Source: Flectonema sp. DT1601
Lineage: Eukaryota
Direction: 5' to 3'
DNA: 64,000 bases
Assembly (NCBI GenBank): GCA_964019425.1
Contig: OZ025784.1
Location: 558,001 to 622,000, forward strand
In this document: positions 2,783-52,162 of the stretch, one piece after another
Layout of the letters: each line of letters begins with the position of its first letter
How positions within the stretch are numbered: the stretch's first letter is position 1
Program-made: the position numbers and the translations under genes
The notes under the pieces: model-generated
The model's input: the letters and a program-made list of their open reading frames with translations, nothing else
The model's database searches: none
Told to the model about the DNA's origin: nothing

Positions 2783-5700
2783 TCAGTAAATAAGGAATGA
2801 ATATTGATCACCTCCAGCACTACTGCCAGGGGTTGTATTAAAACTTCGCCTGCTTTTCAATGGACTCGTGCTTGGAGTTTGCAAGTCCTTGGCTTGAATC
2901 TTAACTTCTGCTGGGAATCCATGACTGTCTGACCATCGAGTCATTTCGTTAGGCCATCTACCGTCAGCTGGGTCAAGACTAACGATCCTAGTGCTTGCCT
3001 CTCCGTATCCTTCACGGATTTCCCAATTATCACCCTTACGACGGATAGATGAAATGCCGTTCGACCACACAGCTGATCCTCCTCTCATTGAATCAAACTT
3101 ATAAGATCCTGATAAAGATGTTGCATCTCCTGCGACAGTAATACCTAACGTTTGAGGCATTGCTGTTGGTTCACTCAGTAATGATCTGGCCCTTCCTGAC
3201 CTCTTCAAAGGAAAAGATCCACCCAAGGGGTTGCTGGCTCTCCTATTTGGAGATGAAACAATGTCTCTTCCTCCCGACATGTCTCTCAGACTTGTGAATC
3301 CCTTTCTCGTCAGGGACGATGCCGCCGCTGATCGTAAACTCAAATCAGTTTGCTCTCCACTAGAAACGCTGTCAACTTTCTGAATCGAAGGTTTTGCAAA
3401 GCTTGGAGTTTCTCCGTATGTTAGTAATAAACTAACATTTGACTCTTGTGGTTTCTGGGAATTAAGCGAAGCACCGAAACCTTGTTCCTCATCGTGTTCT
3501 ATATCTTTCGCTTCTGTGAGTGGAACATCCATCTCAGGATCTGATTCTGTCCATTCCATTTGTTGCAAACGTTGTCTTCTTCCGCTGCAAATGACGTAGC
3601 CTTCTGAGAACAGGTCCAGCACGGTCTGTTTATTGTTGTCTTTATTTTGCTTTCAAACGCTTCAACAGAAATCGAACAAAAGAAAAAAAAAAAACAATAC
3701 GCACCTTAATCATGATAAACACGGTTGCTACTATAAGCCAATTCTGACCTACTGAAAACGCGTCATGGTCGATGTCCTCGGAGTAGAATCCAATGGCAAA
3801 GCATGTTAATCCAACAGACTGGTTTTTTTTTTTTTTTTTATATATTTAATTATTTATTAGAAAGTGAATGCAAGTCACAATTTCGTTGCAACATAAAACC
3901 TACCCAAGGTTTATTTTCGTAAATTAAAAAAATCAAACCTGAGAGAGATTGATACCCGACGTCAAAAAGATATCACGGGGTCTGCAGTATGGTTTCTTCC
4001 AAGCATCAAGAATGAATAATCCTAACAAGATAAATGAGCACATAAGCCTGACATTACCACACGACTTCATAGTGGGAGTGTATGGCACTTTCGCCAAAGA
4101 TAGAAACAGTGAACTTCCAAACATCGAGTAGACGTGAGTTGCGTGGTTTTGTTTGTACGAAGCAATCATTGTTTTGTACCTGTTGACCCAGTGGTGTTCT
4201 TTTCTTCTTGAAACCCATTCCCCTGGTCCGATTATAAATTTAATTATTGGATGGCGCTCAACATCATCAATTCGATACTGTTTTTATTTGTTTCATTTTC
4301 TTTTTCTTTTGTACTTTAACTTACGACTAACACAAAACTTAAAAATAAAACCAACATACCCTTCCATTTAAAGGAACGTCTTTCTTGATCTGTCTAAATA
4401 CCCAGACTGGCACAGCAAGGCAGAATATCAGTCCCGCGACACCAGAAACAATGAAATCAGCCATGTTCTGCTCTTGAGGATAAGCCACTTGTCTAGCAGC
4501 TGCATACGTAGTTCCTTGGTACAAGAATAAGAAAACGAACAAAGCACACGATGGGAATCTAAGAAGACCCGACGACTCAACGTAGTTTTTTCCAGTTTTT
4601 CCACATGGAAGGTAAACAATGACTCCAATTACCACAGCAGCTATAACTGTAAAGATTACTGACAGCATTAAGTTTCCTAAAACAGCTCCAGCAAAGATGG
4701 AATCGTGAATCGATATCCCAGTTGGGTGAAGGACAAACGGCATCGTCTCATTCCTCCATTCATCTTTCGAGACACAACTCGTGTCAGCAATAAACGCCAA
4801 CTGCGTAGCAGAACCCGCAGCTCCCGTTAAAGCTGCGGCTCCAACAGCAGCAGTTGCCGCAGCAGCAGTTGCCTTCTGCACTTCCTCTGACACTACCGAA
4901 GAAATAGGTACAGTTGTCGGCATCGGTGTTTGTGGAATAGAAGTTGGTGACATTGTCGGTACAGTTGTCGGTGCAACTGTTGGAGTATCAGTTGGAGGAG
5001 GAGGAGCAAAAGTTGGTACAGCTGCTAACTGGGGTACTGCAGTCGGTGCGACTGTTGGTACTGCTGTCGGTGCCGTTGGTACCGCTGTTGGCGCTTCTGT
5101 TGGTACTAGTGTTGACGCAGTAGGAACACTTGTTGGCACAGCAGTCGGGACCGTTGGCACCGTTGTTGGGACTGCCGTGGGGACAGCCGTCGGTACCTCC
5201 GTTGGAACTCCCGTTGGAATCGCAGTAGGTACGTCTGTCGGGACGTCTGTCGGGACAGCAGTAGGTACGTCTGTCGGAATCGCAGTTGGTACGTCTGTCG
5301 GGACAGCAGTTGGTACGGCTGTCGGGATGGCAGTTGGCACGGCTGTCGGGATAGTAGTTGGCACGGCTGTCGGGACGGCAGTTGGTACGGCTGTCGGGAT
5401 AGTAGTTGGCACGGCTGTCGGGGTAGTAGTTGGCACGGCTGTCGGGACGGCAGTTGGTACGGCTGTCGGGATGGCAGTTGGCACGGCTGTCGGTACGGCA
5501 GTAGGTACGGCCGTCGGTACGGCTGTCGGCACAGCAGTTGGTATTGCTGTTGGAATTGCAGTCGGAACCGCCGTAGGCACGGCAGTTGGTACCGCTGTCG
5601 GCACTGCTGTTGGTACTGCTGTAGGAATCGCCGTAGGAATAGCAGTTGGAACCGCTGTCGGGACAGCTGTCGGGACAGCTGTTGGCACTGCCGTGGGAAT

Positions 5701-7256
5701 TGCTGTTGGAACCGCTGTAGGCACAGCTGTCGGAACAGCTGTTGGTACCGCTGTAGGCACGGCGGTGGGAACAGCTGTTGGCACTGCAGTAGGTATAGCA
5801 GTTGGAACTGCTGTTGGCACGGCTGTCGGAACAGCTGTTGGCACCGCCGTTGGTACGGCTGTTGGAACAGCTGTCGGCACCGCCGTTGGCACAGCTGTCG
5901 GAACTGCAGTCGGTACTGCTGTAGGCGTAGCCGTTGGGACGGTTGTTGGAACTGCAGTAGGCACAGCTGTAGGTACTGCTGTTGGGGTTGCAGTAGGTAC
6001 GGCCGTCGGTACAGCAGTGGGCACAGCTGTTGGAACAGCCGTAGGCACAGCGGTGGGTACGGCGGTTGGCACTGCTGTTGGCACTGCCGTTGGAACCGCT
6101 GTAGGCACAGCTGTTGGAACAGCTGTAGGCACAGCAGTAGGCACAGCGGTAGGTACGGCAGTTGGCACGGCTGTGGGTACGGCGGTTGGCACGGCTGTCG
6201 GCACAGCTGTGGGTACGGCGGTCGGCACAGCAGTTGGTACAGCTGTGGGCACGGCTGTCGGCACAGCTGTGGGTACGGCGGTCGGCACAGCTGTAGGCAC
6301 AGCTGTTGGAACAGCTGTAGGCACAGCGGTAGGTACGGCAGTCGGCACAGCCGTGGGTACGGCGGTTGGCACGGCAGTCGGTACAGCTGTGGGCACGGCA
6401 GTCGGTACAGCTGTGGGCACGGCAGTCGGAACGGCAGTAGGCACAGCTGTGGGCACGGCCGTTGGTACGGCGGTTGGCACAGCTGTGGGAACTGCTGTCG
6501 GGATAGCCGTCGGAATTGCTGTAGGTACGGCAGTTGGAATCGCTGTTGGAACCGCCGTTGGAACAGCCGTCGGTATTGCAGTCGGTATTGCCGTCGGCAC
6601 GGGAGTCGGAGGAGCTTGAGTAGGACACTCGCAAGTACTGGTTCTCGGGTCAGGATGACCACCACCTACGGTACCGCTGTTGGTTTGTTTAAGTTATTCT
6701 TTCGATGATCAATATAAGAATACTGAACTACTAAATAGCTAAGAAGTAAAACATACCCAGTACAGAAGTCATCACAAGACAGACACTTCAAACCATAAAA
6801 CCCAGCAATGCATACGTACGCAACATCAACAGGAAGCATTGTTGTTGAAGCTGTTGGTAAGTTACCTGCCATCATGTCACATGAAGTCATACTTTGACCT
6901 GTTGCAGCATCGCCAACTGAGAGAGAGAATGAATAGTCGCACACAGCACCGGTACCGCTGTACAAGTTCTGTGGCATCCCTACTGCTGCTGGTCCAGAAC
7001 ATAAGGGAGCCAAAAGGTTGGCTAGAGCCATAGAACCACATCCATCAGCCTTTAGTATAAGTGCAATATTACAGTCACTACCCATAGGAAGGCAAGGTCT
7101 TCCAACAAGTTCTAAATACGATAATCCAATCCCCTTCCCTTGCATTAAGAAATCTATGTAGACTGTGGGATCGAATGCGTTGAAGTCCATTCGAATCAAC
7201 TCAGCACCCCAGCAAGTGAGAGTGCAGCATAGCAGTGCAATGACTCTCAGTAACAT
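2783..7256 (-). CDS. Bodonin/DGF-1-like multi-pass surface receptor with a (TAVP)n mucin stalk; 5 exons, ~1370 aa
   Basis: Exons 7256-6757, 6676-4360, 4277-3939, 3818-3705 and 3625-2783 join in frame across GT..AG introns. Order: signal peptide MLLRVIALLCCTLTCWG, Cys-containing head, long TAVP repeat, poly-Ala/QLAFIADTSC/MPFVLHPT/GAVLGN/LRFPS motifs, about 7 hydrophobic segments, cytoplasmic tail. Family name comes from recalled motif similarity, not a search. Confidence 0.85.
5040..6600 (-). repeat. Coding 12-nt tandem repeat encoding (Thr-Ala-Val-Pro)n
   Basis: More than 100 near-perfect TAVP/TAIP units in translation, with variable synonymous codons at the DNA level. Confidence 0.97.
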
Positions 7257-26487: not shown

Positions 26488-26744
26488 TTATTGTCCTCTG
26501 TGTGCACGCAGAGTGACTGACCCCGTCTGAAGTCTTTTTACGGCGGCTCAACACCAGCAGAATGACAGACAGGGTTAACAATATATAATAGACGTTTAAC
26601 TGACAGAAGAAAAAAAGGGGAAAAAAATCAGTAGAGTGACAGTGTCCCAGGTATTCACACGCAGTGCGACTGAGGCCACCCATCCGAAGTCTTCACGGCG
26701 GCTCAACACCAACAGAATCACAGACGGGGGAGTATCACTGTCGC
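26488..26744. repeat. Two diverged ~100-nt copies of a GC-rich, self-complementary element
   Basis: Copies at ~26488-26584 and ~26636-26744 share the core gaagtctt..acggcggctcaacacca(g/a)cagaat(g/c)acagac(a/g)ggg. Confidence 0.8.
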
Positions 26745-27050
26745 AACATCAAAAGACGTCCAGTGGTGACCAGTAATAAAACAAAAAATAAATTATCATC
26801 ACACAGCATGCACACAATACGATGTGACTAAACCTTTTAACTGGAATATAAGTTATTAGATTACCTCCCAGACGAAGGGGGTGAAAGGGAAGAGAGTTCT
26901 ACGATTGATACATCCAACGTCTTCAAGGAAAATAGATTTATTTAATAACTTATCTGTGATAGGGGTGATAACCGACAGTAGTCGGATGAGATCCTCATTA
27001 CCTTTTCAGGTGAGGTACAGTTAGCTGTCTTCACTAATCATTTAAACGAC

Positions 27051-29605
27051 TTATGTGTCGATAATGTATCGTTGTTCTGATATGAGAAGCTGTTGTTTTG
27101 TTGGTGGTGCGAATTGATCTGACCAGTTGTTTAGAGTGTCGAGGAATTGTTTGTCTTCATCAATAACATCTTGATCAGGTATATCATGGTCAATATTCTT
27201 ATAGTCTTGATGGACGTCATAAAAGGATGATAGCAGCTGGTGATCCCAAGTTGCCGGAAGCATTGTAGATACTAACCCGCTGGTAGTGCCAGGATGAATT
27301 TCAAAGTATTTTGTATTCTTTCCAGATGACTCTGGTACAAATGGAGGTCGGAGTTCTCTATTTCTACACGCAACCCAATCAAATCCAGCAAACCAGCTGT
27401 TGTTAAAAAACCCAGCTGCACCTAATCGATCGCCTTGATTCTTAACTAACAAAGAACAGATGATATCTTTACAAGAATCTGACAGCCGAGGAATTGTTGA
27501 AAATATTTCTCTTGAAATTTTTCTGTAAAGGATTTGTTTTATGTTGTCAATTGGTTCTTTATCATAGAAAGGATAACAACCAGTAATCATTAAGAAAAGT
27601 AACACTCCTAGTGCCCACCAGTCTACACCATACGAATAACCATTTGGTCCCTGTTTGAGCATTTCAGGAGCCATGTATGGCAGAGTCCCACACTTCGTTG
27701 TATTCGCTACGTCAGGTTCTATTGTCTTCGCAAAACCAAAGTCAGTAAGAACGACGTGACCGTCAACATCTAAAACTAGATTTTCAGCTTTCAAATCTCT
27801 GTGTAGAATACTGTGAGTGTGTAAGTGATGAACAGCAAGCGCGACTTCTGCTATGTAAAATCTCGCTCGATCTTCACCACATGGTTCTCCATTCTGAAGG
27901 TGATAAAACAACTCACCCCCTGATAAGAAATCAAATAACAAAAACAACCTCCCTCTAGTTTGAAATGCAGCATGTAACTTTACGATATACGGATGTTTGA
28001 TATTAAGTAGAAGTGATTTTTCTCGGGTCACATTTTTGATGTGACTTTCCTTCTGCAACGCGGCTTTTTGAAGAATCTTACAGGCGTATATCGAGCCAGT
28101 GAGCTTCTCCCGAACCTGTTTTGGGTGTTTTTTATTGTTTTTTTTTTTTTCTTCGATTCTAGAAAGGTATAGCAATACCATTAACAACTGTAAAAAGATA
28201 AAGTACGATACCTTACAAACTCTTCCAAAGCTACCCTTTCCAAGGACATCCAAAAAGTCGAAGTCGCTGGGTAGATATTTAGTATCTTCAAGCGACTCTC
28301 CTTCTACTTCGATTTCGAGATGCCCGGCGCTGACTACCTGGTTTGCGGGTACCAACATTCCGTAATTAGCTTTGCAAGAAAAGTATTGATATCCATTTAC
28401 CATTCCATTGTGCTTGCCAACTGGTTCAATTAGTTCTACTCCAACCCAAAGACCGTCCTGGTGTTGTTTGTTTGTGTTAGATGTTATTACTTTATAAAAC
28501 AATGAGAGGAAAAATGAAAAAGTTTATACCCTGTGATGCGTCTCTTGTCCTGACCGAGCCTTTGTCCCCAGTTGTCCAACCCATTGACAGGTACCAGCGA
28601 CGTAGTCACCCTTTTCTTTAACCCAAACTCTAATTCTGCATCCTTGAAGCAGATCAGATCTAATTAGAGAGAATCTATTGCATGCTCTCCTTAGCTGTTT
28701 TGGTTATGTTCAATTGACATTATAAAACTGTTTATATGATAATGATTAAAAACACAAACCTGACAAAACCATTCTTCTTTCGTATTGTCTCCATCTGCTA
28801 TGAAGTAATAAGGATAATCATGTTCTTGAGTGTGTAGTGCGAATGAGAACGGCGCAGGACTCGGTAGAATATCATAAGAGGGGTCCGTGTCTATTAACTG
28901 ACAAGTAGCAAGATCAATCAACCCGATTGGTTTATCATCATTCTTACTACGATAGTAATAAACGTATTGTGATCGGAGTTCAATCCAACGTTTGCGGAAG
29001 CAACCAAGACTGTGATCAGAGACGCGAGAAGGTGGTTTCCAATTCAAACAAGAATACTGCGACATTAACAAATATCCCGACGTTGGACTATCATTTGCCG
29101 TCAAGTGTGATTTTAGTGTTTTGATTGCTTTTACTTTTTTCGTGTTTCTGTTACTGGCGAGTGCCTCATCCTTTGCTTGTCTGAGTGTCTCACCACAGGC
29201 AGTGCATATCTCGTTGAATGACGCTGCTAAGTTCATGGTCAGAGATTTCCATGCTTCAATCACAGCTGGGTCAGATAGCTGTAAAACTAATACCACAGAT
29301 GATATAAAGCTCTGTGTTAACATTGAGACATGTTTCTTATTAACACCTAAGTGTGCATGTTGTACTGCAATCTTTTGTATGTTTGTAGTAGTTGGAGGGT
29401 GTAGCTCCCACTCAACTATTGTAAGAAGCATCTTTCTCTTATTTGCTTTGGTACTGTGAGCGAAGATATGCCGCACGGTTTCATCTTTTCCTAGCAGATC
29501 TTTGTAAAAGGTTTTACAAAACAATTCTATTCCATCAAACCCCTTCCAGCTCTCCTCGGCAAGCAGCCGTTCTTCACGGAGGTCCTTTGCTGCGGAGATT
29601 CCCAT
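27051..29605 (-). CDS. Globin-PH-CAP-Gly-AGC family Ser/Thr kinase fusion; 4 exons, 773 aa
   Basis: Exons 29605-28760, 28694-28530, 28457-28212 and 28115-27051 join in frame (2322 nt). Globin motifs: ESW, TFY, HIF, QHAHLGV, EAW. PH motifs: FRKRWIEL..YYY..GLIDL..YYFIAD..EEWF. CAP-Gly: LWVGVELIEPVGKHNG..YFSC..GMLV. Kinase: GKGSFG, YACK, HRDLKAEN, DFG, CGT.PYMAPE, DWWALG, PPFVP. Confidence 0.9.
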
Positions 29606-32648: not shown

Positions 32649-35600
32649 TTATCTGAATCTAAAGCCCTGTGGGCCCTGCGGTTTTGATAACCTGCTGCTG
32701 GGTTTCTGTCCTGGTTTAGCAGCTGATTTCTTAGCCTTCAGGGAATTGTCTTCGGTGTTAGGTGATTTTTTATTTTTATTAATATGTGAAGGATGAACCT
32801 GAGAAGTTGGAGTTGTCGGAAAGGTTCGGAGGGTGGCTGAAGAAGAACTTGCAGTTCGCTTGAGTCGAGACCCAGGTGTCGCTCCAGCGACTTTATTATT
32901 AACATCGTGCGAAGATAACGCAGACGGTTTGATCGCAAGTAGTTCACGAGATCGAGGTGGTGATATTTTTGGTGGAGACATTCCTATCAAAGAACTCCCC
33001 ACAGCCTTTGCTGTTAAGTGATTACTATATTCGACGTACCACTGTTTTGCTGATCTTACAAAAGCAGCTACAACGTTACTGTCCCACTGCTCTGATGCGG
33101 GGGTGATGTATGGGGTGCAAAACCTTCCTTCTATCTCACAATATTTACCAGCGAATTCATCATTTATTTTATATATCTCTCTCAAACCTGCACCACCACC
33201 ACCTTTTGAATCCTGAAGAGTGGAATGCAAGTCTTGAATTTCATTATTGAGCCTCTGAACTCTGTTAACCTCGTCTTCGAGTGCTGCTCGGAGCTGAATC
33301 ACTTCTGATTTGGAGGTCCCGCCTGAACGCATTAGTTGATCTTTTGTCTGAGCGTTAGAACGCAACCTTTGAACTTCACTTGTCAGCTCAGTGAGAGCCT
33401 TCTCTGCCATCGTAGCATGTTCGGGTGTGACGTTTGATTTCTGTGTAGGTTTCGTGTGTTTATTATTCCCACACAACAACGACTCATAATAAACACAAAA
33501 TTCAACAAACCTGAAGCTCGTTAAGCTGCATTTGCAACTGTCTAATAGCCGCGTCTTTTGCTACCAAATCCTGCTTTAGAACTTCCAACATAATGTTGTG
33601 GTCCTTCTGGACATCACTCTTTGATTCAGATGATGCTGATGTTGCTTTTAGTTGATCCTGTTTGATAGTATTGAGAGATGTGATCTGGTTTATTAATAGT
33701 GAAGACTTGTAATAAATAAATACCTCAAGTAGTTCTATCCTTCTCGTTGCAATTACTAATTGCGAGTGTTCCTCATCTTCGGTCTTGCAGGAGAGAGAGG
33801 ACTGCGCAGCAGTCAATTCATTTTCTAAATGTATTCTTTTCAAGTCAGTCGATTGCAATTGCGACGCTGCAGCGAGAGAGCGTTCGATTGCCTGCTTGAG
33901 TTCCAGTCGTAGTCGTTCACACTGTTTGGGTGTTTGTTTGTTTGTTTGTTTGTTTGTTTGTTTGTTTGTTTGTTTGTTTGTTTGTTTGTTTGTTTGTTTG
34001 TTTGTTTGTTTGTTTGTTTGTTTGTTTGTTTGTTTGTTTGTTTGTTTGTTTGTTTGTTTGTTTGTTTGTTTGTTTGTTTGTTTGTTTGTTTGTTTGTTTG
34101 TTTGTTTGTTTGTTTGTTTGTTTGTTTGTTTGTTTGTTTGTTTGTTTGTTTGTTTGTTTGTTTGTTTGTTTGTTTGTTTGTTTGTTTGTTTGTTTGTTTG
34201 TTTGTTTGTTTGTTTGTTTGTTTGTTTGTTTGTTTGTTTGTTTGTTTGTTTGTTTGTTTGTTTGTTTGTTTGTTTGTTTGTTTGTTTGTTTGTTTGTTTG
34301 TTTGTTTGTTTGTTTGTTTGTTTGTTTGTTTGTTTGTTTGTTTTGTTGTTCATTTCTAAAAAATATCTAAAAGAGTAATGAATACCTCAGTGTCTTTGTC
34401 GGTTAGGCGATCGTCCTTTTCAGAAAGTGCTTTTCGGAGGGAGTCGATCTGGAGCTGATTTCGTTTGTTTTCAGACTGAACACCATGAACTTCGAGATTA
34501 CGAACCTCACCTTCTCCTTTTGATGCTATCAGAGATGTCTTAGTTGTCGAGAGTTTGTCTTCAACTCGAAGTAATTTGGAAGTTGTCTCCGCGATGGTGG
34601 TGTCTTTCTCTTTTAACTTTGCGTAACAGAGAGACAACTCTTGTTCTAAAGTATCAATTTTCCCCTCCGCAATCCTTCCCTGTTCTCTTAAGTGTTGTTT
34701 AGCCGTTGCAAGCTCATTCTTAATATTAAGAAGTTCCTGTGAGTGAGTCGTCTCCTTTGAAACTAATTCCTCACGCAAGACTCGAACTTGACTGATTGTC
34801 TCTTCTAAAGCAACATGAAGGTGTCGAACATCAACAGATTTTTCATCCATGCGGCTGCTGAGTTCGCGAAGAAGCTGCTCCTTAGCTTCTGTGGCAGCTT
34901 TTATTTCAGATTGAGCGCTTTTGTATCGATCAAGTTGCGTATCTTTATCAGACAGCTCCATTTCTTTGTTTTGTAATTCTGAGCTCAGTTGTCTTTGTAA
35001 GTCTTCTCTATGCATCGCCAGCTGTGAATTTTCACTTTTAGCGAGCTTGAGATGCATTTCTAGTGATTCCATTGTTCTACACTTTTCAACTAATTCTGAG
35101 TTAGCATTAGACAGCATGGTCTTGGCGCTTTGGTGGGCTACTTTTGACGATTCTAAATTCTCTTTTAGAGTGATAATGTCACACTCAAGTCTGTGTTGAA
35201 TGGCTGAAGCTTGCATTGAGACTGTTGTCGTTGCTGTTGTTGCCGAATCTTTTTGTGATGCGAGTTGTTCTTCGAGATTTACTAATTCATCTTTGAAACT
35301 TTGCTCACGGAAAGCAGCTGCGCTGCTATCCATCAGTCGAAGGAATGACAAGTCAAGTAGAGAGAATCGAAGATTCTCTTCTTGTGATAATGCCGTTCTA
35401 CTTATGTGTTCTTGAGCTAATAGAGAACTCATTTCACTGCACAACAAAACTTCTCCATGCGCTGCCGAAGTGTTTCTGAGTAGTATTTGCTCATCATTTG
35501 TTTGCAAAAATCGTTTTTCAAGGGAATCGAACTGAGCAGATCTTTGCTGACATTCAAGACGAAGATGGGAAATTGATGCTTCTGACTGAATGGTATTTTG

Positions 35601-39908: not shown

Positions 39909-41651
39909 TCATTTAAGCTCATTGTGAACTAATCCGTGATGACCAACAGTTACCAGCAGGTTTGCGGCTTCTGAAGCCTTGTGTAAGCCAGGTCGATTCC
40001 ACTGCTTCTCACCAGAATTATGAAGATAGAAAACATCACCGTAAGCTGACTGAACCAGCCTCCATCCATAAGGAAGTGGAAGGCGAAGGCAATCATAGGT
40101 TGGTTCAGGACCGTATCGTGATATCAACCGTTCAAACAGTTCTGAAGTACGACCAGCAAATAAACAAAGTGTAGGAACAACAGATGGCAGTTTATGAGGA
40201 CACATTAATGTGATATAATTCAAAAGCCGATAACGAACAACAGGATCAAACCCAAGTCTGTTCAGCTCTTTAGTATTCTGGTTGATAGACAAGTCTGATT
40301 GTTGTAACGGAGTTGATAGTTTTGAGTAATAAACTTGAGTAGCATGTCTCTTACTTGATTCAAGCAACACCGGACTATTATCTTTGCTATAAATATCTGT
40401 AGGGTAATGAAAAGACAGATCACCATCAACTCGGTGAACGTCTCTCCAACAATTTCTACAAAGTCGCAGTGAGCAAGAGGGACAGAACCACAGAGCTGGA
40501 GGTGCTCTTCCTTCGCCTTTTAATTGCCTTTCAATGAAGCAATTATCACACGGCCACAGTAGTAGTTTTGGTTTGTGAACAGCCATACGATTATCTCTGT
40601 GAACATGAAACCAACATGGGACACACATCGTACTGTTCGAATCACACTCTAAGCACATCGCTACAGATGGTTTACTTTGGCAATAATTACAAATATTTCG
40701 CGGTGTTGAATTCTTTGCGGAGGTCAGTGAAATCGGATTGTGCCTACGGAAAGCGTTCCTTGAATGAATAACACTACTGCAAGATGAACACAACAATAAA
40801 GAGCAATCATCACATCTCACGTCAGCGATATTCTTACCACAGTCCTGACACCGTCCTCCTGATTCTCGTGAAAGAACAATATCCTTAATAGTAGTTGGGT
40901 ATGGCGATGCTTGCTGATTCTTTGTCGGAAAATTTTCCTCTTCCGATTCAGAAGAATTGTTACTACTTTTAACGGGTTTGTTTTTATTCTTAGAATGTGG
41001 TGGTGACGGCGATTTTTTTATTTTTCGTTTCGGTAATGGCTCGGGTTGCTGAGGTTCAGTTTCAGGTTCAGGTTCGGGATCGGCAACCACCGACGGCTCG
41101 GGTTCAGGTTCGGGATCGGTAACCACTGGCGGCTCGAGTTCAGGTTCGGGATCGGCAACCACTGGCGGCTCGAGTTCAGGTTCGGGATCGGCAACCACTG
41201 GCGGCTCGAGTTCAGGTTCGGGATCGGTAACCACTGGCGGCTCGGGTTCAGGCTCGACAACCGGTGGCTGAGACTCAGGATCAGCAACCACCAACGACTC
41301 CGGCGGCTGAGTAGCTTTCGACGACGAAGCACTCGACTTTTTTTCTATCACTTCACTCCCAGGTGCGGTAATTACGTCGGGTTGAATTACAGCCTCCGCA
41401 GGCTCAGCATACGGAGACACTATCGAGAGTTCCTCGTCCTCTGGGGTTGGTATTTCACTTGGGGGCATTACTAATGGTTTTAAACTACTTTTTGATGAAC
41501 TGCTAGAATTGTTAGCTTTTGGTGTCCCTTCCGTAGGCTCATCTTCAACCTGTAGCTCTTCGTGGTCAGATACTTCTGTGAGCTTCGTCTGATTCTCATT
41601 CTCTGCGTTGGATGATTTCTTACTTAGATTTGAACTGACACTTGAAGTCAT
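39909..41651 (-). CDS. Protein with Pro/Glu repeats, three B-box-type zinc fingers and a C-terminal WW domain; 580 aa
   Basis: Single ORF with three C..C...C..C..(L/M)C..C...H...H units and the WW-like LPLPYGW..GDVFY..GEKQWNRP. Confidence 0.85.
   Translation of the reverse strand: MTSSVSSNLSKKSSNAENENQTKLTEVSDHEELQVEDEPTEGTPKANNSSSSSKSSLKPLVMPPSEIPTPEDEELSIVSPYAEPAEAVIQPDVITAPGSEVIEKKSSASSSKATQPPESLVVADPESQPPVVEPEPEPPVVTDPEPELEPPVVADPEPELEPPVVADPEPELEPPVVTDPEPEPEPSVVADPEPEPETEPQQPEPLPKRKIKKSPSPPHSKNKNKPVKSSNNSSESEEENFPTKNQQASPYPTTIKDIVLSRESGGRCQDCGKNIADVRCDDCSLLLCSSCSSVIHSRNAFRRHNPISLTSAKNSTPRNICNYCQSKPSVAMCLECDSNSTMCVPCWFHVHRDNRMAVHKPKLLLWPCDNCFIERQLKGEGRAPPALWFCPSCSLRLCRNCWRDVHRVDGDLSFHYPTDIYSKDNSPVLLESSKRHATQVYYSKLSTPLQQSDLSINQNTKELNRLGFDPVVRYRLLNYITLMCPHKLPSVVPTLCLFAGRTSELFERLISRYGPEPTYDCLRLPLPYGWRLVQSAYGDVFYLHNSGEKQWNRPGLHKASEAANLLVTVGHHGLVHNELK
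41061..41305 (-). repeat. Coding 36-nt tandem repeat (PPVVADPEPELE), about 5-7 copies
   Basis: Near-identical adjacent units ttcaggttcgggatcgg(c/t)aaccactggcggctcgag with no unique spacers. Confidence 0.92.
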
Positions 41652-42676
41652 TATCCACTAACCATATGCTCCTGTTGACCTGTTTTGTGAATAAGTAAAC
41701 AATTAATTAGACTCACTCATCTAAGTCTTTTTTTTTTTTTTTTTTTTACAAATGGTTATAATCTCCTCATGTTAACTATTCAATTTTGTTACGTAAAATA
41801 CAAATGTGTTGTGTCAAATACAATAGGGGTGATAGGGCTTGACAATGTAGAAAACAGTAACAACTTTAGGGTATTAAAACAAAAATTAATATCAAAGTAC
41901 CTGACTGAAAAAGATATTCGTAGTTGCTAATCAAACAAAAGGTACTTCTAAAAAAAAAAAAAAAACACAAAAAAGGAAATATATTTTATCGTATTGACCA
42001 GGAGACGTTGTCGACTCGTACTATCAGGTTGAGCGTCCCATGCCCGCTTTGCTCGTTTCAACACTGTAGTGAAAAATTTCTCTTTTCTTTTTTTTTTTCC
42101 CCTTTCTTTTGAGGGTTTGTCTCGCACACAAAAATCGAATTCCAGTCGGCTTCGCTGAAAGGGAAAAGAAAACGAAAAACGTCGCCGACCGTGACTCCAA
42201 TTTAACTGGTTTCTGTACTATTGAAATCCAGCTGCTTTCCCATCTCTCCTTCCCTTTTCACGTTGCAGGAAGGTTTTTCGGAGCAAGCAGCTCTGGTGGA
42301 CGAGTTCAGGACGAGATAGATAAGGAAGTCCAATACATTGCATACTGTGCATCGCGAAATAAACTTAATTACATATAGTAAGATAATAAAACCTAATAAT
42401 TATAAATTATATTCGCTGGGGGCGGACCAACACTCTTAACTTTCGAACAATACTTGGAGTTGAATGCTTCTGTGTAGACACAGTGGAAGAGTAAACAATG
42501 GCCATCGGGGTAAACCTTATCACAGAATCAAAACGGCATGTACTGTAGGGATAGAGTTTTATTTTCTCTTCTTTACTTTCTTGTTAATATTTGTATATAA
42601 CTAAAGGAGAATTATCGTGCATCGGTGAATTCAAATATGGGGGAAGTGATTATTTTCTTTTGCTTTTTTCTCTTTT

Positions 42677-43362
42677 TTATGTTTCTTGTATTTTTCGTCC
42701 ATAACGAGATCTAACAAGACTGGTGGTTACACTACTGAGACCTGAAAGGTCAAGAGAAGTGACTTGTGAACAGGAATATAAGAAATCATTTCCAATAGTG
42801 GTTATTACTGAAACCTGAAAAAAGTCAAGAGAAGTGATTTGTGAACAGCAAGACAAGAAATAACCGGTGGTTACACTAGTAAGACTTGAAAGGTCAAGAG
42901 AAGTGACTTGTGAACAGAAACACAAGAAATAATCTCCAACAGTGGTTACACTACTAAGACCTGAAAGGTCAAGAGAAGTGATTTGGAAACAGGAAGACAA
43001 GAAATAATCTCCAATAGTTTTTACACCACTATTGGAGGAGACTTGAAAAGTCAGAGAAGTGATTTGTGAAGAAGACATTAAATCATTTCCAACAGTAGTA
43101 ACTTGTGAGATGGCTGTGATGTCGGAATTTGAATTACGGAAAGAAATCTGTTGGACAGCTGGAAGCAGCAAATCACCATGAATACTGATACAACTATCCT
43201 CTGTGAATGTAGGGATGTCTAGGTATAAGTATTCTTCATCGTGGTTTTTGATCCAATCAAGTATCTTCTCACATTTTGTATCATCAACACACGGGAATCA
43301 GCACCAGCCGTGACTGACACGGCGGCAAACCCCAAATCCGAACACTTCACAAAAACCTGCAT
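42677..43362 (-). pseudogene. Frameshifted BspA-type leucine-rich-repeat gene
   Basis: ATG at 43362 (MQVFVKCSDLG..) is out of frame with the LRR reading frame and no fitting intron was found. The ~25-aa repeats C.QITSLDLSGLSSVTT.G.YFL contain internal deletions. Confidence 0.6.
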
Positions 43363-43805: not shown

Positions 43806-46800
43806 TCAGATAGATGACCTCCAAATCATGTCTGCTAATTGAGCTGGTAGTAGATCTGTTGGACTAGTATTCTTTGTAATAGAAAGATCATTATTTGAGT
43901 TAAACAATGCAGGCTGTAAATTAAAATATTTATCTGGTCTCCTTTTAGCCTCCATACATTCTCCACAGTACGCTTCGAGTGCTCCATGTCTGCATAAACT
44001 AAGTTTAGGTTGTTCTTCTCGTTTATATGATTCCCAACCTTTGTTTTTACCAACACCAGCGAGGTCCCACTTGTTCTTAAAGAAAACTCTAACTCGTTGA
44101 CTTCCTGGTTCTACTCTGTAGGTGAACCCTTTGCAGTCGGGGAGGGTTAAGCAAAACTGTTTTGCCTCTTCTACAGTACATCTCTTCGATGGTCCAATGT
44201 CACCTCCTCCAGTAATGTAACCCTCGTAACGAGTTAGTAGAGACCCGTCTTGATTTTGTCTTTGTTCTTTCTTTGCTTGTCTTTCAGTTCGCAATTCCTC
44301 AGCAATCTCTTCACGTTCTAACTGCCTATCAGCAACACGTAGGTTGTACCTCCAGATGGTAGTCTCTAGTGATTCTACTGCAGCTTTGCGCTGTTTTAAT
44401 TGTTTTCAAAGAGTAAACTAGATCCAAAAGAAATAATAAAATAAACCTTAAATAAATACCTGAGGCTCTTGTACTGTGGTGACGGTCTTCATCTTAGCAG
44501 CTGTTGCTTCCACACGATCGAAGAGGATTTGACCAACAGAAACTTCTTCAGGTCGTAAGCTTAGCTTCTCATGATCACGACGATGAGGATGTCGATGTTC
44601 AAGTTTCCAACAAGTTGAACAGAGAGGTAGTTCACATGACTTACACCAATAAACAGCAGGTCGATTATCAGTACCGCTACACACACAACATTTCTGCATC
44701 AACAATTTTGGACTGGGACGCTCCGGAGGTACCGGAACCCCCGCTGCCTCAGCCTCCACAATATCATCTGCAGCTTCTTGTTGCTGGCGAAGGAGACATT
44801 TCTCGCAGATGTTTTGGGAAACTAGACCGTCTCCTCCTAACATTCGAGGCCAATGAAATAAAGCAATTTCCATAGAACATGAGTCACACAGTGCTCCATC
44901 AGCAGACTTAAAAGTGACATCCTCACTGAAGAATGGTTGTTCATAATAAGTTACCGTTTGAGCAAGAGTCGTCGCATAGTCCCAGTCTCCTTGAGGACCT
45001 CCCGGATAGGCGAATGTCCTTGAGTGCTGAGAGCGAATCGGGTTTTTGTGTTCGGCGTGCCAACACTTCTTGCAGAGAAACAGTCTGCAGACATCACAAA
45101 TCCAAAGTGCGGGTGTGCAAAGAGATTCGTCCTTCGAGGATTCGCTGTCGACATAACAAAAGTCGCAATGATGAAATAAAAGAGTCTTCCGATGATCTTG
45201 TTTATCAATAATACCCGCAGTCGGTGTAGTGTTGTCTTTATCATGAACGTGTTCTAAATCCCAGCATTCTTCACAGAGTTTTTCATCACACTGCGGACAT
45301 ACAAAAACTGCTTCTACACACTCATCATCTCCAGCATCACATCCTGTACAGATTCTATCGGCTGCAAACTCACCATCCCTCCATGAGAGTGGTTCTGCTT
45401 TGTTGATGATCATATCAGAAGTGACTTCTTCTTCAACACTTTCAGCCTTCTCGGAGTCCATTGATATTTCAACATTTAGTATTCCCTGTTTAGGTTTGGG
45501 TTTTAGTTTGGTTTGGCTGCTTATTTAGAAAAAAAAAGAAAATACACACCTTAGGTTGAAGAGGGTGAGTAACAGGTATGTGGGTGTGAGTTGCAGTGAC
45601 GGTATCATCCAGTGGTGAGGCATCACTAGGATGGATCAGCGGAAGTGGCCAACGTCTAGGATTATCAGTAGTCTCAAGAAGTATATAATTTGGTATAGTA
45701 AGAGAGACAGCTCCTAGAACAGTATCATCACTATCATGACGAAGGTCTTTAACAATATAATCGTATTCATCCATTTCGTCTTCTTCCTTTCTAGTGAATA
45801 CTGAAAACGTGAGTTGCAAAGGATGCTGTGCCAGTTTAGACCTGACCACTTCAATCTCAAACTTCTCTTCCCAAATAACATGACTCTCCCCAGACACTTC
45901 CTTTATACTTGAACTGCTACTACCGCTACTACTCGACGTTGTTATTACCTGTTCGTCAGAGTCACCATTAATAGGCGCTTCTGTGACGAAACTAACATCT
46001 GAATAGGCGACCTCAGTTCGAACTCTGGGTTCGGATGCTTTTTCTGGAAGATCTGCCCACAGGATTGTTAGATTAATAATCTTCGGTAACTCAGGCATCC
46101 ATGATATAGGATGAACTGTCAGTAAGTCAATAGGAAGAACGAATGTTTCGTCTTCTTTAAACGTAACAGATACAACGTGAGGTGGAGGGATTGATGCTTC
46201 CTCAGGGGCGAGGATGGTACCGCGAAGCTCTGCTGCCAGTGTGTCCATGTTTCTACGAAGATCTGATACCTTTGTTTCAATAGCACACGTAACGTTTCCC
46301 ACAAGTCCGATTGATTCTCTTCCACAATAGCTTCCTAATTGGAGATCATTTCTAACAAGGTAACGATATTCTTTGCGATCATCAAGTGAATCTAAAACAA
46401 AATCCTTCTCAGGAAGTGTCACATATTTCCCTGCCGAAACTCTACTTCTCCTATCAACCTCAGCATCTTTTGAATTAACTAATTGTGAGTATCGATGTCT
46501 TAATCTGTCATCTGCTTTGAAAGTTTCTGTTTGAATGGCGTCTTTCCATTTTCGAAGAGCGGGATGGGAATTTCCAAGTGTGTCTCTTTTTAAGAATTCA
46601 ACGTTGAGTTCATCTCCAGACCTGGAAACCTCTCCTACTAAAAATGATGTCAGCGGAGGAGAAAGAATCGAAGGAGTGGTATCACCTGATGCGTGTCGTT
46701 TTTGAAATGGAGTCAAATCGATTACCTCAGTCAACCCCCTCAGTCGGCATGTTACTTTTAAAACTCCTTCTCGTGCACTGAGAGTAGATGGTTGGGTAGA

Positions 46801-51230: not shown

Positions 51231-52162
51231 CTACGCGTTTTCATCATCGTCGAATTCTCGTGGTCGTTTTTGTTTTGAAGGAGATGATGCTGATGCTTTC
51301 AAAGCTTGAAGACGAGCCTTAACATCATCATCAAGATCGTCATCAGGTTGACGTGCAGGTTGTTTGAGTGCAGCTAATCGTTCAGCAACGCTCGGATCAA
51401 TATTTAGTTGTTCATCTGTTTCTGGAACTGATTGCTGAAGATGCTTACGGCGCTCTTTTCGATTAGTTGCTGTTGTGTCGTCATCATCTATGCCAGCGTT
51501 ATCAAATTGTGTTTCTGTTTCAGAGTTCGCCCAAATTGATTCGTACTCAGGTTCCACTGTTGATGCCGAAGCTAACTTTTCTCTGTGAATCTGTATAGCA
51601 GCAAGATACTGACCGTATTTATTACCGAATATATTTCTCCTTCCTCCTCTACCTGTTGAGCATCCTCTGCAACCATTAAAACGTCCTTCAACAAGTGGGT
51701 GATCAGGTCCTAATTCATATCTGGGAACTCGACAGACACTGACAGTTCCATGATTAAAATTCTTATTATTAATGCTATAGGTACTACACAGTCGTTCATA
51801 TCCTTGTTTCTTCCACTTCGCAATGAGTGCCACGTCAACTAGTTTTTGTTTGGTACAATAATCGTACACTCCTTTTGGTATTCTTTTATAGCGATAATAC
51901 AAGTCGTAAACGTATCTGCTTCGTTGCCAATTTATCTGTGGTAGGTTATTTGGGGGGTTTTTTTATATCACTCAGAATGGTAATGGTGATGAAAAAAGAT
52001 ACAAACCTGGTGAATAGGCCACTGCAACTCAACGTTTCTTCTTTCAGTGTTCATACCGCTGACGTGCTCTTTTTGCTCTGCGTCTAACGCGTCCATAACA
52101 GTTGATATAATGTCCCATCCCTCGGGAAGTTTCTTCTTTCCCCATCTTCGATCACCTGACAT
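51231..52162 (-). CDS. BUD31: BUD31/G10 family spliceosomal protein, divergent, with C-terminal extension; 2 exons, 286 aa
   Basis: Exons 52162-52007 and 51935-51231. Motifs PEGW..I, WPIHQINWQRSRYVYDLYY, LIAKWKKQGYERLC, CRVP and GCRGCS. Confidence 0.88.

What the first reader, a model, noticed from the sequence alone, without database searches (positions are those of the whole stretch)
27051..29605. Globin-PH-CAP-Gly-AGC kinase: candidate heme/gas-sensing, membrane- and microtubule-targeted Akt-like kinase
Seen: three GT-AG introns (28695-28759, 28458-28529, 28116-28211) join two ORFs and an unannotated 165-nt exon into one 773-aa frame. The order is MGISAAK (Gly2, myristoylation-like), a 3/3 globin (A-helix W, B10-like FY, CD1-like F, proximal F8-like His in QHAHLGV, H-helix EAW), PH, CAP-Gly (GKHNG for GKNDG) and an intact AGC kinase with a PPFVP tail. 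Established: PH plus AGC kinase is the Akt/PKB plan, CAP-Gly binds tubulin/EB EEY tails, and globin-coupled sensors usually drive bacterial MCP, GGDEF or His-kinase outputs, or an adenylate cyclase in Leishmania. Inference: O2/NO/redox input is coupled directly to Ser/Thr phosphorylation at membrane-associated microtubules. I do not recall this four-domain architecture being described. The usual distal E7 Gln/His is not evident (Asn/Lys there), so ligand chemistry may be unusual.
Basis: partly seen in the sequence, partly recalled or inferred. Interest (0 to 1): 0.88.

Follow-up and report, generated by a model that had tools for sequence, protein, structure and literature searches.

The report
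Globin-coupled AGC kinase family of diplonemids
This is a real four-exon gene of a marine diplonemid protist, one of a conserved family, that joins a haemoglobin-type domain to an Akt-like protein kinase, so it likely lets oxygen or a related haem ligand switch protein phosphorylation directly, a wiring I found in no paper.

Summary
Observation confirmed. The three GT-AG introns give one 773-aa frame. A Flectonema neradi transcriptome protein matches it at 81% over its whole length. Relatives with the same domain order occur in 10 diplonemid/hemistasiid species, up to 3 paralogues each. The N-terminal domain is an F-family 3/3 globin: profile hit to Vitreoscilla Hb E=5.9e-6; model pLDDT 91.7, flavohaemoglobin Z 16.5; proximal His in 30 of 30. 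Eight CAP-Gly-less globin-kinases from unnamed records extend the family, so globin-kinase is the core and CAP-Gly is likely a later insert. GKNDG is intact in 0 of 22, the PH lacks the beta-1 Lys, and the T-loop and hydrophobic motif are not Akt-like, so microtubule targeting and 'Akt' are weakly supported. Gly2 is conserved (21 of 29). Haem binding and kinase regulation are untested. Ten literature searches found no description. New variant of the globin-coupled sensor idea, with a Ser/Thr-kinase output.

The parts
28760..29605 (-). Exon 1 (aa 1-282): Gly2 N-terminus, globin, extended H helix, most of PH
   Evidence: M1 is the first Met of the open frame and matches the F. neradi start
28695..28759 (-). 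Intron 1, 65 nt, GT-AG, phase 0
28530..28694 (-). Exon 2 (aa 283-337): end of PH helix, first half of CAP-Gly
28458..28529 (-). Intron 2, 72 nt, GT-AG, phase 0, in-frame stop
28212..28457 (-). Exon 3 (aa 338-419): second half of CAP-Gly (GKHNG), linker, kinase Gly-rich loop
28116..28211 (-). Intron 3, 96 nt, GT-AG, phase 0, no in-frame stop (read through in the database gene call P0021)
27051..28115 (-). Exon 4 (aa 420-773 and stop): rest of kinase, AGC tail, C-terminus
29585..29605 (-). MGISAAK, predicted N-myristoylation site
   Evidence: Gly2 in 17 of 22 CAP-Gly members and 4 of 7 CAP-Gly-less members, against 14 of 166 other stored proteins; pattern recalled
29201..29578 (-). F-family 3/3 globin (aa 10-135): TyrB10=Y34, PheCD1=F48, E7=K56, E11=L60, HisF8=H83, G5=V93, H8=W119
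29357..29359 (-). His83, proximal F8 haem ligand position
   Evidence: His in 30 of 30 family members and 41 of 41 single-domain globins; aligns with the F8 His of Vitreoscilla Hb
29438..29440 (-). Lys56 at distal E7
   Evidence: family: Gln 20, Arg 4, Lys 2, His 2, Val 1, gap 1 of 30; single-domain globins Gln 37 of 41
29096..29200 (-). Extension of helix H (predicted helix runs 113-149) and second helix 155-166: candidate signal-transmitting linker; Cys134/Cys137
   Evidence: 34 of 38 residues identical in F. neradi; Cys134 in 9 and Cys137 in 14 of 30
28665..29086 (-). PH domain (aa 174-292, across intron 1) with long beta1-beta2 insert and no beta-1 Lys
28323..28655 (-). CAP-Gly domain (aa 296-382, across intron 2)
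   Evidence: Pfam E 4.7e-16; CLIP-170/restin E 7e-10
27378..28262 (-). AGC kinase domain (aa 403-665, across intron 3): G410-G415 loop, K432, E451, HRD 524-526, DFG 544-546, T558/T559-K-C-G-T, APE
27183..27377 (-). AGC C-tail (aa 666-730): PPFVP, NTKYF, hydrophobic-motif-like LSSFYDV without a Ser/Thr at the usual phospho-site
27054..27068 (-). Conserved C-terminus YIIDT (aromatic residue five from the end)
   Evidence: 17 of 22 CAP-Gly members, 1 of 7 CAP-Gly-less members

Best explanation
The gene encodes one 773-residue protein in which a globin with an intact proximal histidine precedes PH, CAP-Gly and AGC kinase domains, and it likely works as a haem-based oxygen sensor that would switch the kinase on or off at a membrane. 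Shown: the gene model, the domains, the haem-pocket residues, and conservation as one polypeptide across diplonemids and hemistasiids. Predicted: myristoylation of Gly2 anchors it; haem binds His83; helix H runs on for about 15 residues beyond the globin and leads into the PH domain, with which the globin is modelled as one unit. Inferred: ligand binding shifts this helix and the PH domain, changing the PH's restraint on the kinase, so that the haem replaces the lipid, PDK1 and hydrophobic-motif inputs of Akt, whose signature residues are missing. My guess for direction is that the liganded state is the active one. CAP-Gly is a later insert that likely recruits partners or substrates, possibly but not demonstrably at the cytoskeleton. 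This paralogue's Lys at E7 likely tunes affinity away from the TyrB10/GlnE7 paralogues.
For: Single-transcript orthologues in 10 species. Globin fold: Z 16.5, rmsd 2.1 A over 136 residues to E. coli flavohaemoglobin. HisF8 30 of 30, aromatic B10 28 of 30 (Tyr 18, Phe 10), PheCD1 24 of 30, GlnE7 20 of 30: a ligand-binding pocket kept since the family arose. TyrB10 is tied to O2 binding in flavohaemoglobin (PMC3820574, passages). No reductase domain, and G5 is never Tyr in the family against 35 of 41 in single-domain globins, which fits a non-catalytic role (significance of TyrG5 recalled). Globin+PH model pLDDT 91.7, pTM 0.85, helix H 113-149. All 29 family kinase domains tested form one clade, 99/98, so the fusion is old and retained. 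Catalytic motifs intact. Akt input motifs absent. Precedent for globin-to-enzyme control in the same phylum: trypanosomatid oxygen-sensing adenylate cyclases (PMC7719234, section 16). D. papillatum, which has 2 family genes, rounds and shortens under hypoxia (PMC8611851, passages).
Against: No experiment: haem binding, ligand, kinase activity and coupling are all untested. The globin is the fastest-changing domain (73/122 identical to F. neradi, against 107/119 for PH and 231/263 for the kinase). In this paralogue group E7 is Lys/Arg and CD1 is Leu in the Rhynchopus-type rows, so O2 may not be the ligand here. Described sensor chimeras use S-family globins, whereas F-family chimeras are mostly enzymes (PMC7475203, passages). 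A high pTM from a 32-row alignment is a model's confidence, not a measured interface. The hypoxia phenotype has no demonstrated link to these genes.
Confidence: 0.5

Rival explanations
1. The globin binds haem and controls the kinase, but in this paralogue the signal is redox state or an anion (sulfide, nitrite) rather than O2, through LysE7 (distal ligation or charge) and the Cys134/Cys137 pair on helix H.
For: E7 is Lys or Arg in 6 of 30 members, all of this paralogue group plus Artemidia. Cys134 is invariant in the first five orthologues and Cys137 is in 14 of 30. A second His at F10 is in 27 of 30. Up to three paralogues per species suggest divided inputs.
Against: TyrB10 is kept in the window protein. 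Most of the family has the O2-type TyrB10/GlnE7 pair. No spectra exist.
Confidence: 0.2
2. The globin is a haem enzyme or buffer (NO dioxygenase, local redox sink) or a haem-availability sensor tethered to the kinase, with no gas-dependent switch.
For: The closest solved relatives are Vitreoscilla Hb, flavohaemoglobins and Cgb, NO-detoxifying proteins (PMC3820574 passages).
Against: No reductase is fused, TyrG5 is lost in 30 of 30, and a low-abundance signalling kinase would be a poor scavenger (inference). The extended helix H is predicted to join the globin to the PH domain.
Confidence: 0.15
3. The globin no longer binds haem and serves as a structural, dimerising or lipid-binding regulatory domain, like the non-haem globins of stressosomes.
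For: Fast divergence; below Pfam cut-off in the window protein; non-haem globins regulate the Ser/Thr kinase RsbT in trans (PMC8942246, passages).
Against: HisF8 in 30 of 30 with B10, CD1 and E7 largely kept across rows whose globins are only 14-60% identical to the window's is hard to explain without haem.
Confidence: 0.12
4. The fusion is an artefact of joining neighbouring genes.
For: Database gene calls split this locus into two proteins (P0065 and P0021). No reads of this organism were available.
Against: An 81% identical full-length transcript protein and many more single-ORF relatives; best-scoring junctions.
Confidence: 0.01

Closest known systems
Globin-coupled sensors of bacteria and archaea (HemAT, diguanylate cyclase, histidine kinase types)
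   Same: N-terminal 3/3 globin with proximal His followed by a signalling output in one chain (PMC7475203 and PMC3287990, passages).
   Different: The globin here is F-family (flavohaemoglobin Z 16.5 against HemAT 12.4, Geobacter GCS 12.2, Bordetella GCS 11.9). The output is a eukaryotic-type AGC Ser/Thr kinase with PH and CAP-Gly between.
Trypanosomatid oxygen-sensing adenylate cyclases (OAC/HemAC)
   Same: Euglenozoan, N-terminal globin fused to a signalling enzyme (PMC7719234, passages and section 16).
   Different: Output is cAMP, not phosphorylation; described as a trypanosomatid innovation absent from Bodo saltans; cytoplasmic. Kinship of the two globins was not tested.
Akt/PKB, SGK and RSK AGC kinases
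   Same: AGC catalytic domain and PxxP tail (SGK1 E 3.4e-61, RSK 2e-59, Akt 1e-56); PH before the kinase as in Akt and in the Bodo saltans PH-AGC kinase P0059.
   Different: Globin and CAP-Gly added; PH lacks the beta-1 Lys and has a ~20-residue insert; activation loop TKCGT; hydrophobic-motif site is F-x-x-F-aromatic-Asp. D. papillatum members are annotated only as 'RAC family kinase-like'.
Single-domain F globins and flavohaemoglobins (Vitreoscilla Hb, Hell's Gate-type Hb, Cgb, thermoglobin, Hmp)
   Same: Fold and TyrB10/PheCD1/GlnE7/HisF8 register.
   Different: No reductase; G5 hydrophobic instead of Tyr; helix H extended; fused to a kinase.
Stressosome RsbR-RsbT
   Same: A globin-fold domain upstream of a Ser/Thr kinase (PMC8942246, passages).
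   Different: Separate proteins, non-haem globin in the species described, and RsbT is not a eukaryotic-type kinase (recalled).
Haem-regulated eIF2-alpha kinase HRI (recalled, no call)
   Same: A eukaryotic Ser/Thr kinase controlled by haem and gases.
   Different: Uses no globin fold and belongs to another kinase group.

Membership tests
3/3 globin (myoglobin fold) | 3-over-3 helical fold A-H | tested here: met
   Model helices 10-20, 26-40, 42-47, 53-68, 73-85, 90-107, 113-149; Z 16.5, rmsd 2.1, 136 aligned
3/3 globin (myoglobin fold) | His at proximal F8 (criterion in PMC3287990) | tested here: met
   H83; 30 of 30
3/3 globin (myoglobin fold) | Binds haem and a gaseous ligand | not testable with these tools
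   Needs spectra
F-family globins | Nearest sequence and structure relatives are FHb/Fgb | tested here: met
   The 12 best of 17 PDB profile hits are Vitreoscilla Hb, related single-domain Hbs and flavohaemoproteins; top fold hit E. coli flavohaemoglobin
F-family globins | TyrB10/GlnE7 distal pair | tested here: not met
   Window protein has Tyr34 but Lys56; the family mostly has Gln (20 of 30)
Flavohaemoglobin | C-terminal FAD/NAD reductase | tested here: not met
   PH, CAP-Gly and kinase follow the globin
Globin-coupled sensors (S family) | S-family globin domain | tested here: not met
   S-family structures score about 4 Z units under flavohaemoglobin; Protoglobin Pfam only E 0.019-0.04, under cut-off
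Globin-coupled sensors (S family) | N-terminal globin plus C-terminal signalling output in one chain | tested here: met
Globin-coupled sensors (S family) | Ligand binding changes output activity | not testable with these tools
   Needs kinase assays
AGC kinase group | Catalytic domain nearest AGC kinases with intact catalytic residues | tested here: met
AGC kinase group | C-tail with PxxP and hydrophobic motif | tested here: inconclusive
   PPFVP and NTKYF present; hydrophobic-motif-like segment lacks the phospho-Ser/Thr
Akt/PKB | PH with beta-1 Lys and beta-2 Arg pair for 3-phosphoinositides (motif recalled) | tested here: not met
   Beta-2 R-x-R present, beta-1 position is Met/Val/Ile in the CAP-Gly members; the Bodo PH-AGC kinase keeps Lys. 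PDB alignments did not cover beta-1
Akt/PKB | Activation loop T-F-C-G-T | tested here: not met
   TKCGT in the window; Phe before Cys in 0 of 29 family rows, present in P0059
Akt/PKB | Hydrophobic motif F-x-x-F-S/T-Y/F (recalled) | tested here: not met
   LSSFYDV / FASFYDV
CAP-Gly | Domain match | tested here: met
CAP-Gly, EEY/F-binding type | GKNDG motif (role recalled) | tested here: inconclusive
   GKHNG in the window, similar to CLIPR-59 GKHDG, but exact motif in 0 of 22 and Lys in 1 of 22 family rows
N-myristoylated proteins | Gly2 and small residue at position 6 | tested here: met
   Window matches; pattern in 10 of 22 CAP-Gly and 4 of 7 other members; modification itself untested

The most novel reading that the evidence does not exclude
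These are the first globin-coupled eukaryotic-type Ser/Thr kinases: an old protist family, expanded in diplonemids into paralogues with different distal pockets, in which haem ligands replace the lipid and upstream-kinase inputs of the Akt plan and give a one-component O2/NO/redox-to-phosphorylation switch that reshapes the cell through CAP-Gly partners under hypoxia.
Probability: 0.45. Interest if true: 0.85.

Novelty: new variant of a known kind. Interest (0 to 1): 0.72.

Why it matters
Diplonemids are abundant marine protists that tolerate hypoxia and change shape in it (PMC8611851), yet the words globin and sensing do not occur in that paper's main text, nor globin in the D. papillatum genome paper's main text. 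A globin fused to an AGC kinase would be a direct oxygen-to-phosphorylation route in a eukaryote, using an F-family globin as a sensor. It is testable now: two members lie in D. papillatum (KAJ9454051.1, KAJ9450130.1), which is genetically tractable, and the paralogues offer a natural series of distal pockets (Gln, His, Lys, Arg at E7).

Tried and rejected
No genome is held for this window. No RNA holder was listed, so no reads were laid; this is no evidence on expression. A single-sequence fold of the globin failed (pLDDT 43); the alignment-based fold replaced it. Foldseek with the two-domain model listed PH-bearing proteins and no globin in the rows shown; VIA-align resolved both domains. 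A CAP-Gly-region homologue search returned only its query. A metagenome scan found no relative (162 pattern matches, 0 confirmed). Complex prediction of the F. neradi globin against the rest of its chain with haem gave no answer (score 0.00, alignments not used); it is not used as evidence. The Atlas gave globin clusters at 0.89, a lead only, and generic AGC kinases for P0080. My first register (E7 = Asn55, from five sequences) was wrong and was replaced by Lys56 after aligning 30 family and 41 single-domain globins. A quick globin tree clusters the family (2 changes against a shuffled mean of 24.3) but does not show one origin or a donor. The co-occurrence of CAP-Gly with an aromatic C-terminus falls on one clade, so it is not evidence of co-evolution. 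Neighbouring genes give no functional clue. Earlier scan notes held nothing on this sequence.
Full report
Gene model. The minus strand carries exons at 28760-29605, 28530-28694, 28212-28457 and 27051-28115, separated by GT-AG introns of 65, 72 and 96 nt, all phase 0 and AT-rich; joined, they give 773 aa and one stop. No genome is held and no RNA run was listed, so I tested the model on relatives. A search with exon 1 among longer proteins gave 4 hits of 2638 candidates, all transcriptome proteins with PH, CAP-Gly and kinase, from Diplonema ambulator, Rhynchopus humris, Sulcionema specki and Rhynchopus euleeides. A profile search gave 53 hits; the best 22 are this family, one of them (P0021) the window's own 3' half with intron 3 read through, followed by a plain PH-AGC kinase of Bodo saltans. 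Further named sources are Artemidia motanka, Diplonema papillatum (2 genes), Lacrimia lanifica, Namystynia karyoxenos, Flectonema neradi and a record prefixed Hpha (read as Hemistasia phaeocysticola; expansion recalled), 10 species in all. The F. neradi protein P0056 is 629/777 identical to the spliced product with one 4-residue gap, and the stated splice sites score best among 7, 2 and 18 open alternatives. The window is therefore from a diplonemid close to F. neradi (inference). GT-AG introns are the norm in D. papillatum (PMC10161547, passages).

The globin. Pfam alone is weak on the window protein (13.1-16.7 bits, cut-off 22), which explains why database calls miss it. It passes the cut-off in 7 of 11 CAP-Gly-bearing relatives and 3 of 8 others scanned. 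A five-sequence profile finds Vitreoscilla haemoglobin at E 5.9e-6, and the 12 best of 17 hits are F-family proteins. The same profile finds 148 proteins among 1.84 billion at E<=0.001, and a family globin profile matches all 148. AlphaFold2 with 32 sequences models aa 1-282 at pLDDT 91.7, pTM 0.85, with helices A, B, C, E, F, G and an H helix running from 113 to 149, a further helix 155-166, then PH. Its best structural match is E. coli flavohaemoglobin (Z 16.5, rmsd 2.1, 136 aligned); thermoglobin scores 15.1, and the sensor globins HemAT 12.4, Geobacter 12.2, Bordetella 11.9; PH domains reach 13.0. With 30 family and 41 single-domain globins aligned: F8 His83 is His in 30 of 30; B10 Tyr34 is Tyr 18, Phe 10; CD1 Phe48 is Phe in 24; E7 is Lys56 here but Gln in 20, Arg 4, Lys 2, His 2, Val 1, gap 1; G5 is never Tyr (Tyr in 35 of 41 single-domain globins); B9 is His in 11.

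The wider family. Of the 148 hits, 15 carry a kinase domain: 7 already seen and 8 new ones from unnamed records (P0076, P0078, P0079, P0080, P0087, P0094, P0107, P0162) that have globin and kinase, no CAP-Gly, and a PH detected in 6 of 8. A kinase-domain tree of 35 rows (P0079 left out as truncated; P0005, P0015, P0016, P0020, P0021 left out as near-duplicates or fragments) puts all 29 family rows in one clade (99/98) beside the Bodo PH-AGC kinase, with the 22 diplonemid-type rows nested (93/89, not starred) among the CAP-Gly-less ones (only 6 outgroup rows, midpoint root). The likely order is PH-AGC kinase, then globin added, then CAP-Gly inserted and the gene multiplied in diplonemids (inference). 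The lineage of the 8 unnamed records is not known.

The other domains. The kinase is nearest SGK1, RSK and Akt with all catalytic motifs intact. It is not an Akt: the PH has the beta-2 arginines but Met/Val/Ile where Akt-type PH domains have Lys (motif recalled; the Bodo protein has Lys), the activation loop reads TKCGT with Phe in 0 of 29 family rows, and the hydrophobic-motif segment is F-x-x-F-aromatic-Asp with no Ser/Thr at the usual site. CAP-Gly is a clear domain match, but GKNDG is exact in 0 of 22 and its Lys is kept only in the window protein, so tubulin or EB tail binding is an open guess. Gly2 is present in 17 of 22 and 4 of 7 against 14 of 166 other stored proteins; two of the five exceptions start inside the globin and look truncated. 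An aromatic residue five from the C-terminus is found in 17 of 22 CAP-Gly members and 1 of 7 others; it may be a docking tail, perhaps for the protein's own CAP-Gly, but the two traits share one clade.

Mechanism. Shown: one chain, a globin with a conserved haem pocket, an intact kinase. Predicted: myristoyl anchor, haem on His83, a long H helix tying globin to PH. Inferred: ligand binding moves this unit and alters PH restraint of the kinase, standing in for the missing Akt inputs. I give 0.5 to O2 sensing, 0.2 to redox or anion sensing by this LysE7 paralogue, 0.15 to a tethered enzyme or haem-level sensor, 0.12 to a haem-free domain and 0.01 to artefact. Against the reading: nothing is assayed, the globin diverges faster than the other domains (73/122 against 107/119 PH and 231/263 kinase to F. 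neradi), and described sensor chimeras use S-family globins (PMC7475203). Context only: D. papillatum rounds and shortens in hypoxia (PMC8611851).

Literature. Ten full-text searches listed no paper on a globin-AGC or globin-PH-kinase fusion; 'globin domain' with 'AGC kinase' gave 0 papers. What I saw: passages of PMC7475203, PMC8717448, PMC4081604, PMC8942246, PMC3820574, PMC5745447, PMC3287990; passages and section 16 of PMC7719234; passages and term searches of supplements for PMC8611851 (61, 62: no hit in 5 files) and PMC10161547 (66, 69: only a truncated-haemoglobin orthogroup in 7 files). Sen Santara 2013 was seen only as cited. PMC7475203 lists 'kinase domains' among known or predicted sensor outputs without naming a type in the passage seen; PMC3287990 names histidine kinase. 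The library lacks most subscription papers, including a review of microbial eukaryote globins that I recall and could not check; bioRxiv supplements are closed; and the domain set is visible in precomputed Pfam calls, so the architecture may be recorded in databases without having been discussed.

Verdict. Real, conserved and apparently undescribed; it works like a globin-coupled sensor by layout but is not a member of the S-family sensors, of flavohaemoglobins or of Akt. New variant of a known kind, interest 0.72.

Noticed in passing
P0195 (unnamed record): 968-aa protein with C2, RasGAP and a C-terminal globin, all above Pfam cut-off: another globin-signalling fusion.
   Followed up: no
P0067-P0075 and others: Many unnamed proteins with tandem F-type globin repeats, up to 9 in P0067 (2352 aa); P0125 has cytochrome b5 plus globin.
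   Followed up: no
P0006, P0008-P0011, P0013, P0057, P0007, P0018, P0078, P0079: His at B9 next to B10 in 11 of 30 family globins, and His at E7 in the two hemistasiid rows P0055 and P0018: possible alternative distal ligands.
   Followed up: partly
window 27054-27068: Conserved aromatic-x-x-D-T C-terminus in CAP-Gly-bearing members; candidate ligand for a CAP-Gly or PDZ-type partner.
   Followed up: partly
window 28116-28211: Intron 3 is 96 nt with no in-frame stop; retention would insert 32 residues into the kinase N-lobe, as in the database call P0021.
   Followed up: partly
window 33900-34370: Long tandem 4-nt repeat (AAAC on the minus strand) inside or between coiled-coil ORFs.
   Followed up: no
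window 39909-41657 and 44448-45524, minus strand: Two B-box zinc-finger ORFs; also BUD31 at 51231-51962, a BspA-type LRR ORF at 42677-43297 and a PT-repeat ORF at 4339-6693.
   Followed up: no
window 1-64000: 28 of 31 frames of 200 aa or more are on the minus strand, and the 3 plus-strand ones overlap repeats, consistent with a polycistronic gene cluster.
   Followed up: no
window 26500-26760: A short sequence (ctgctggtgttgagccgccgt-like) appears twice about 150 nt apart downstream of the gene.
   Followed up: no
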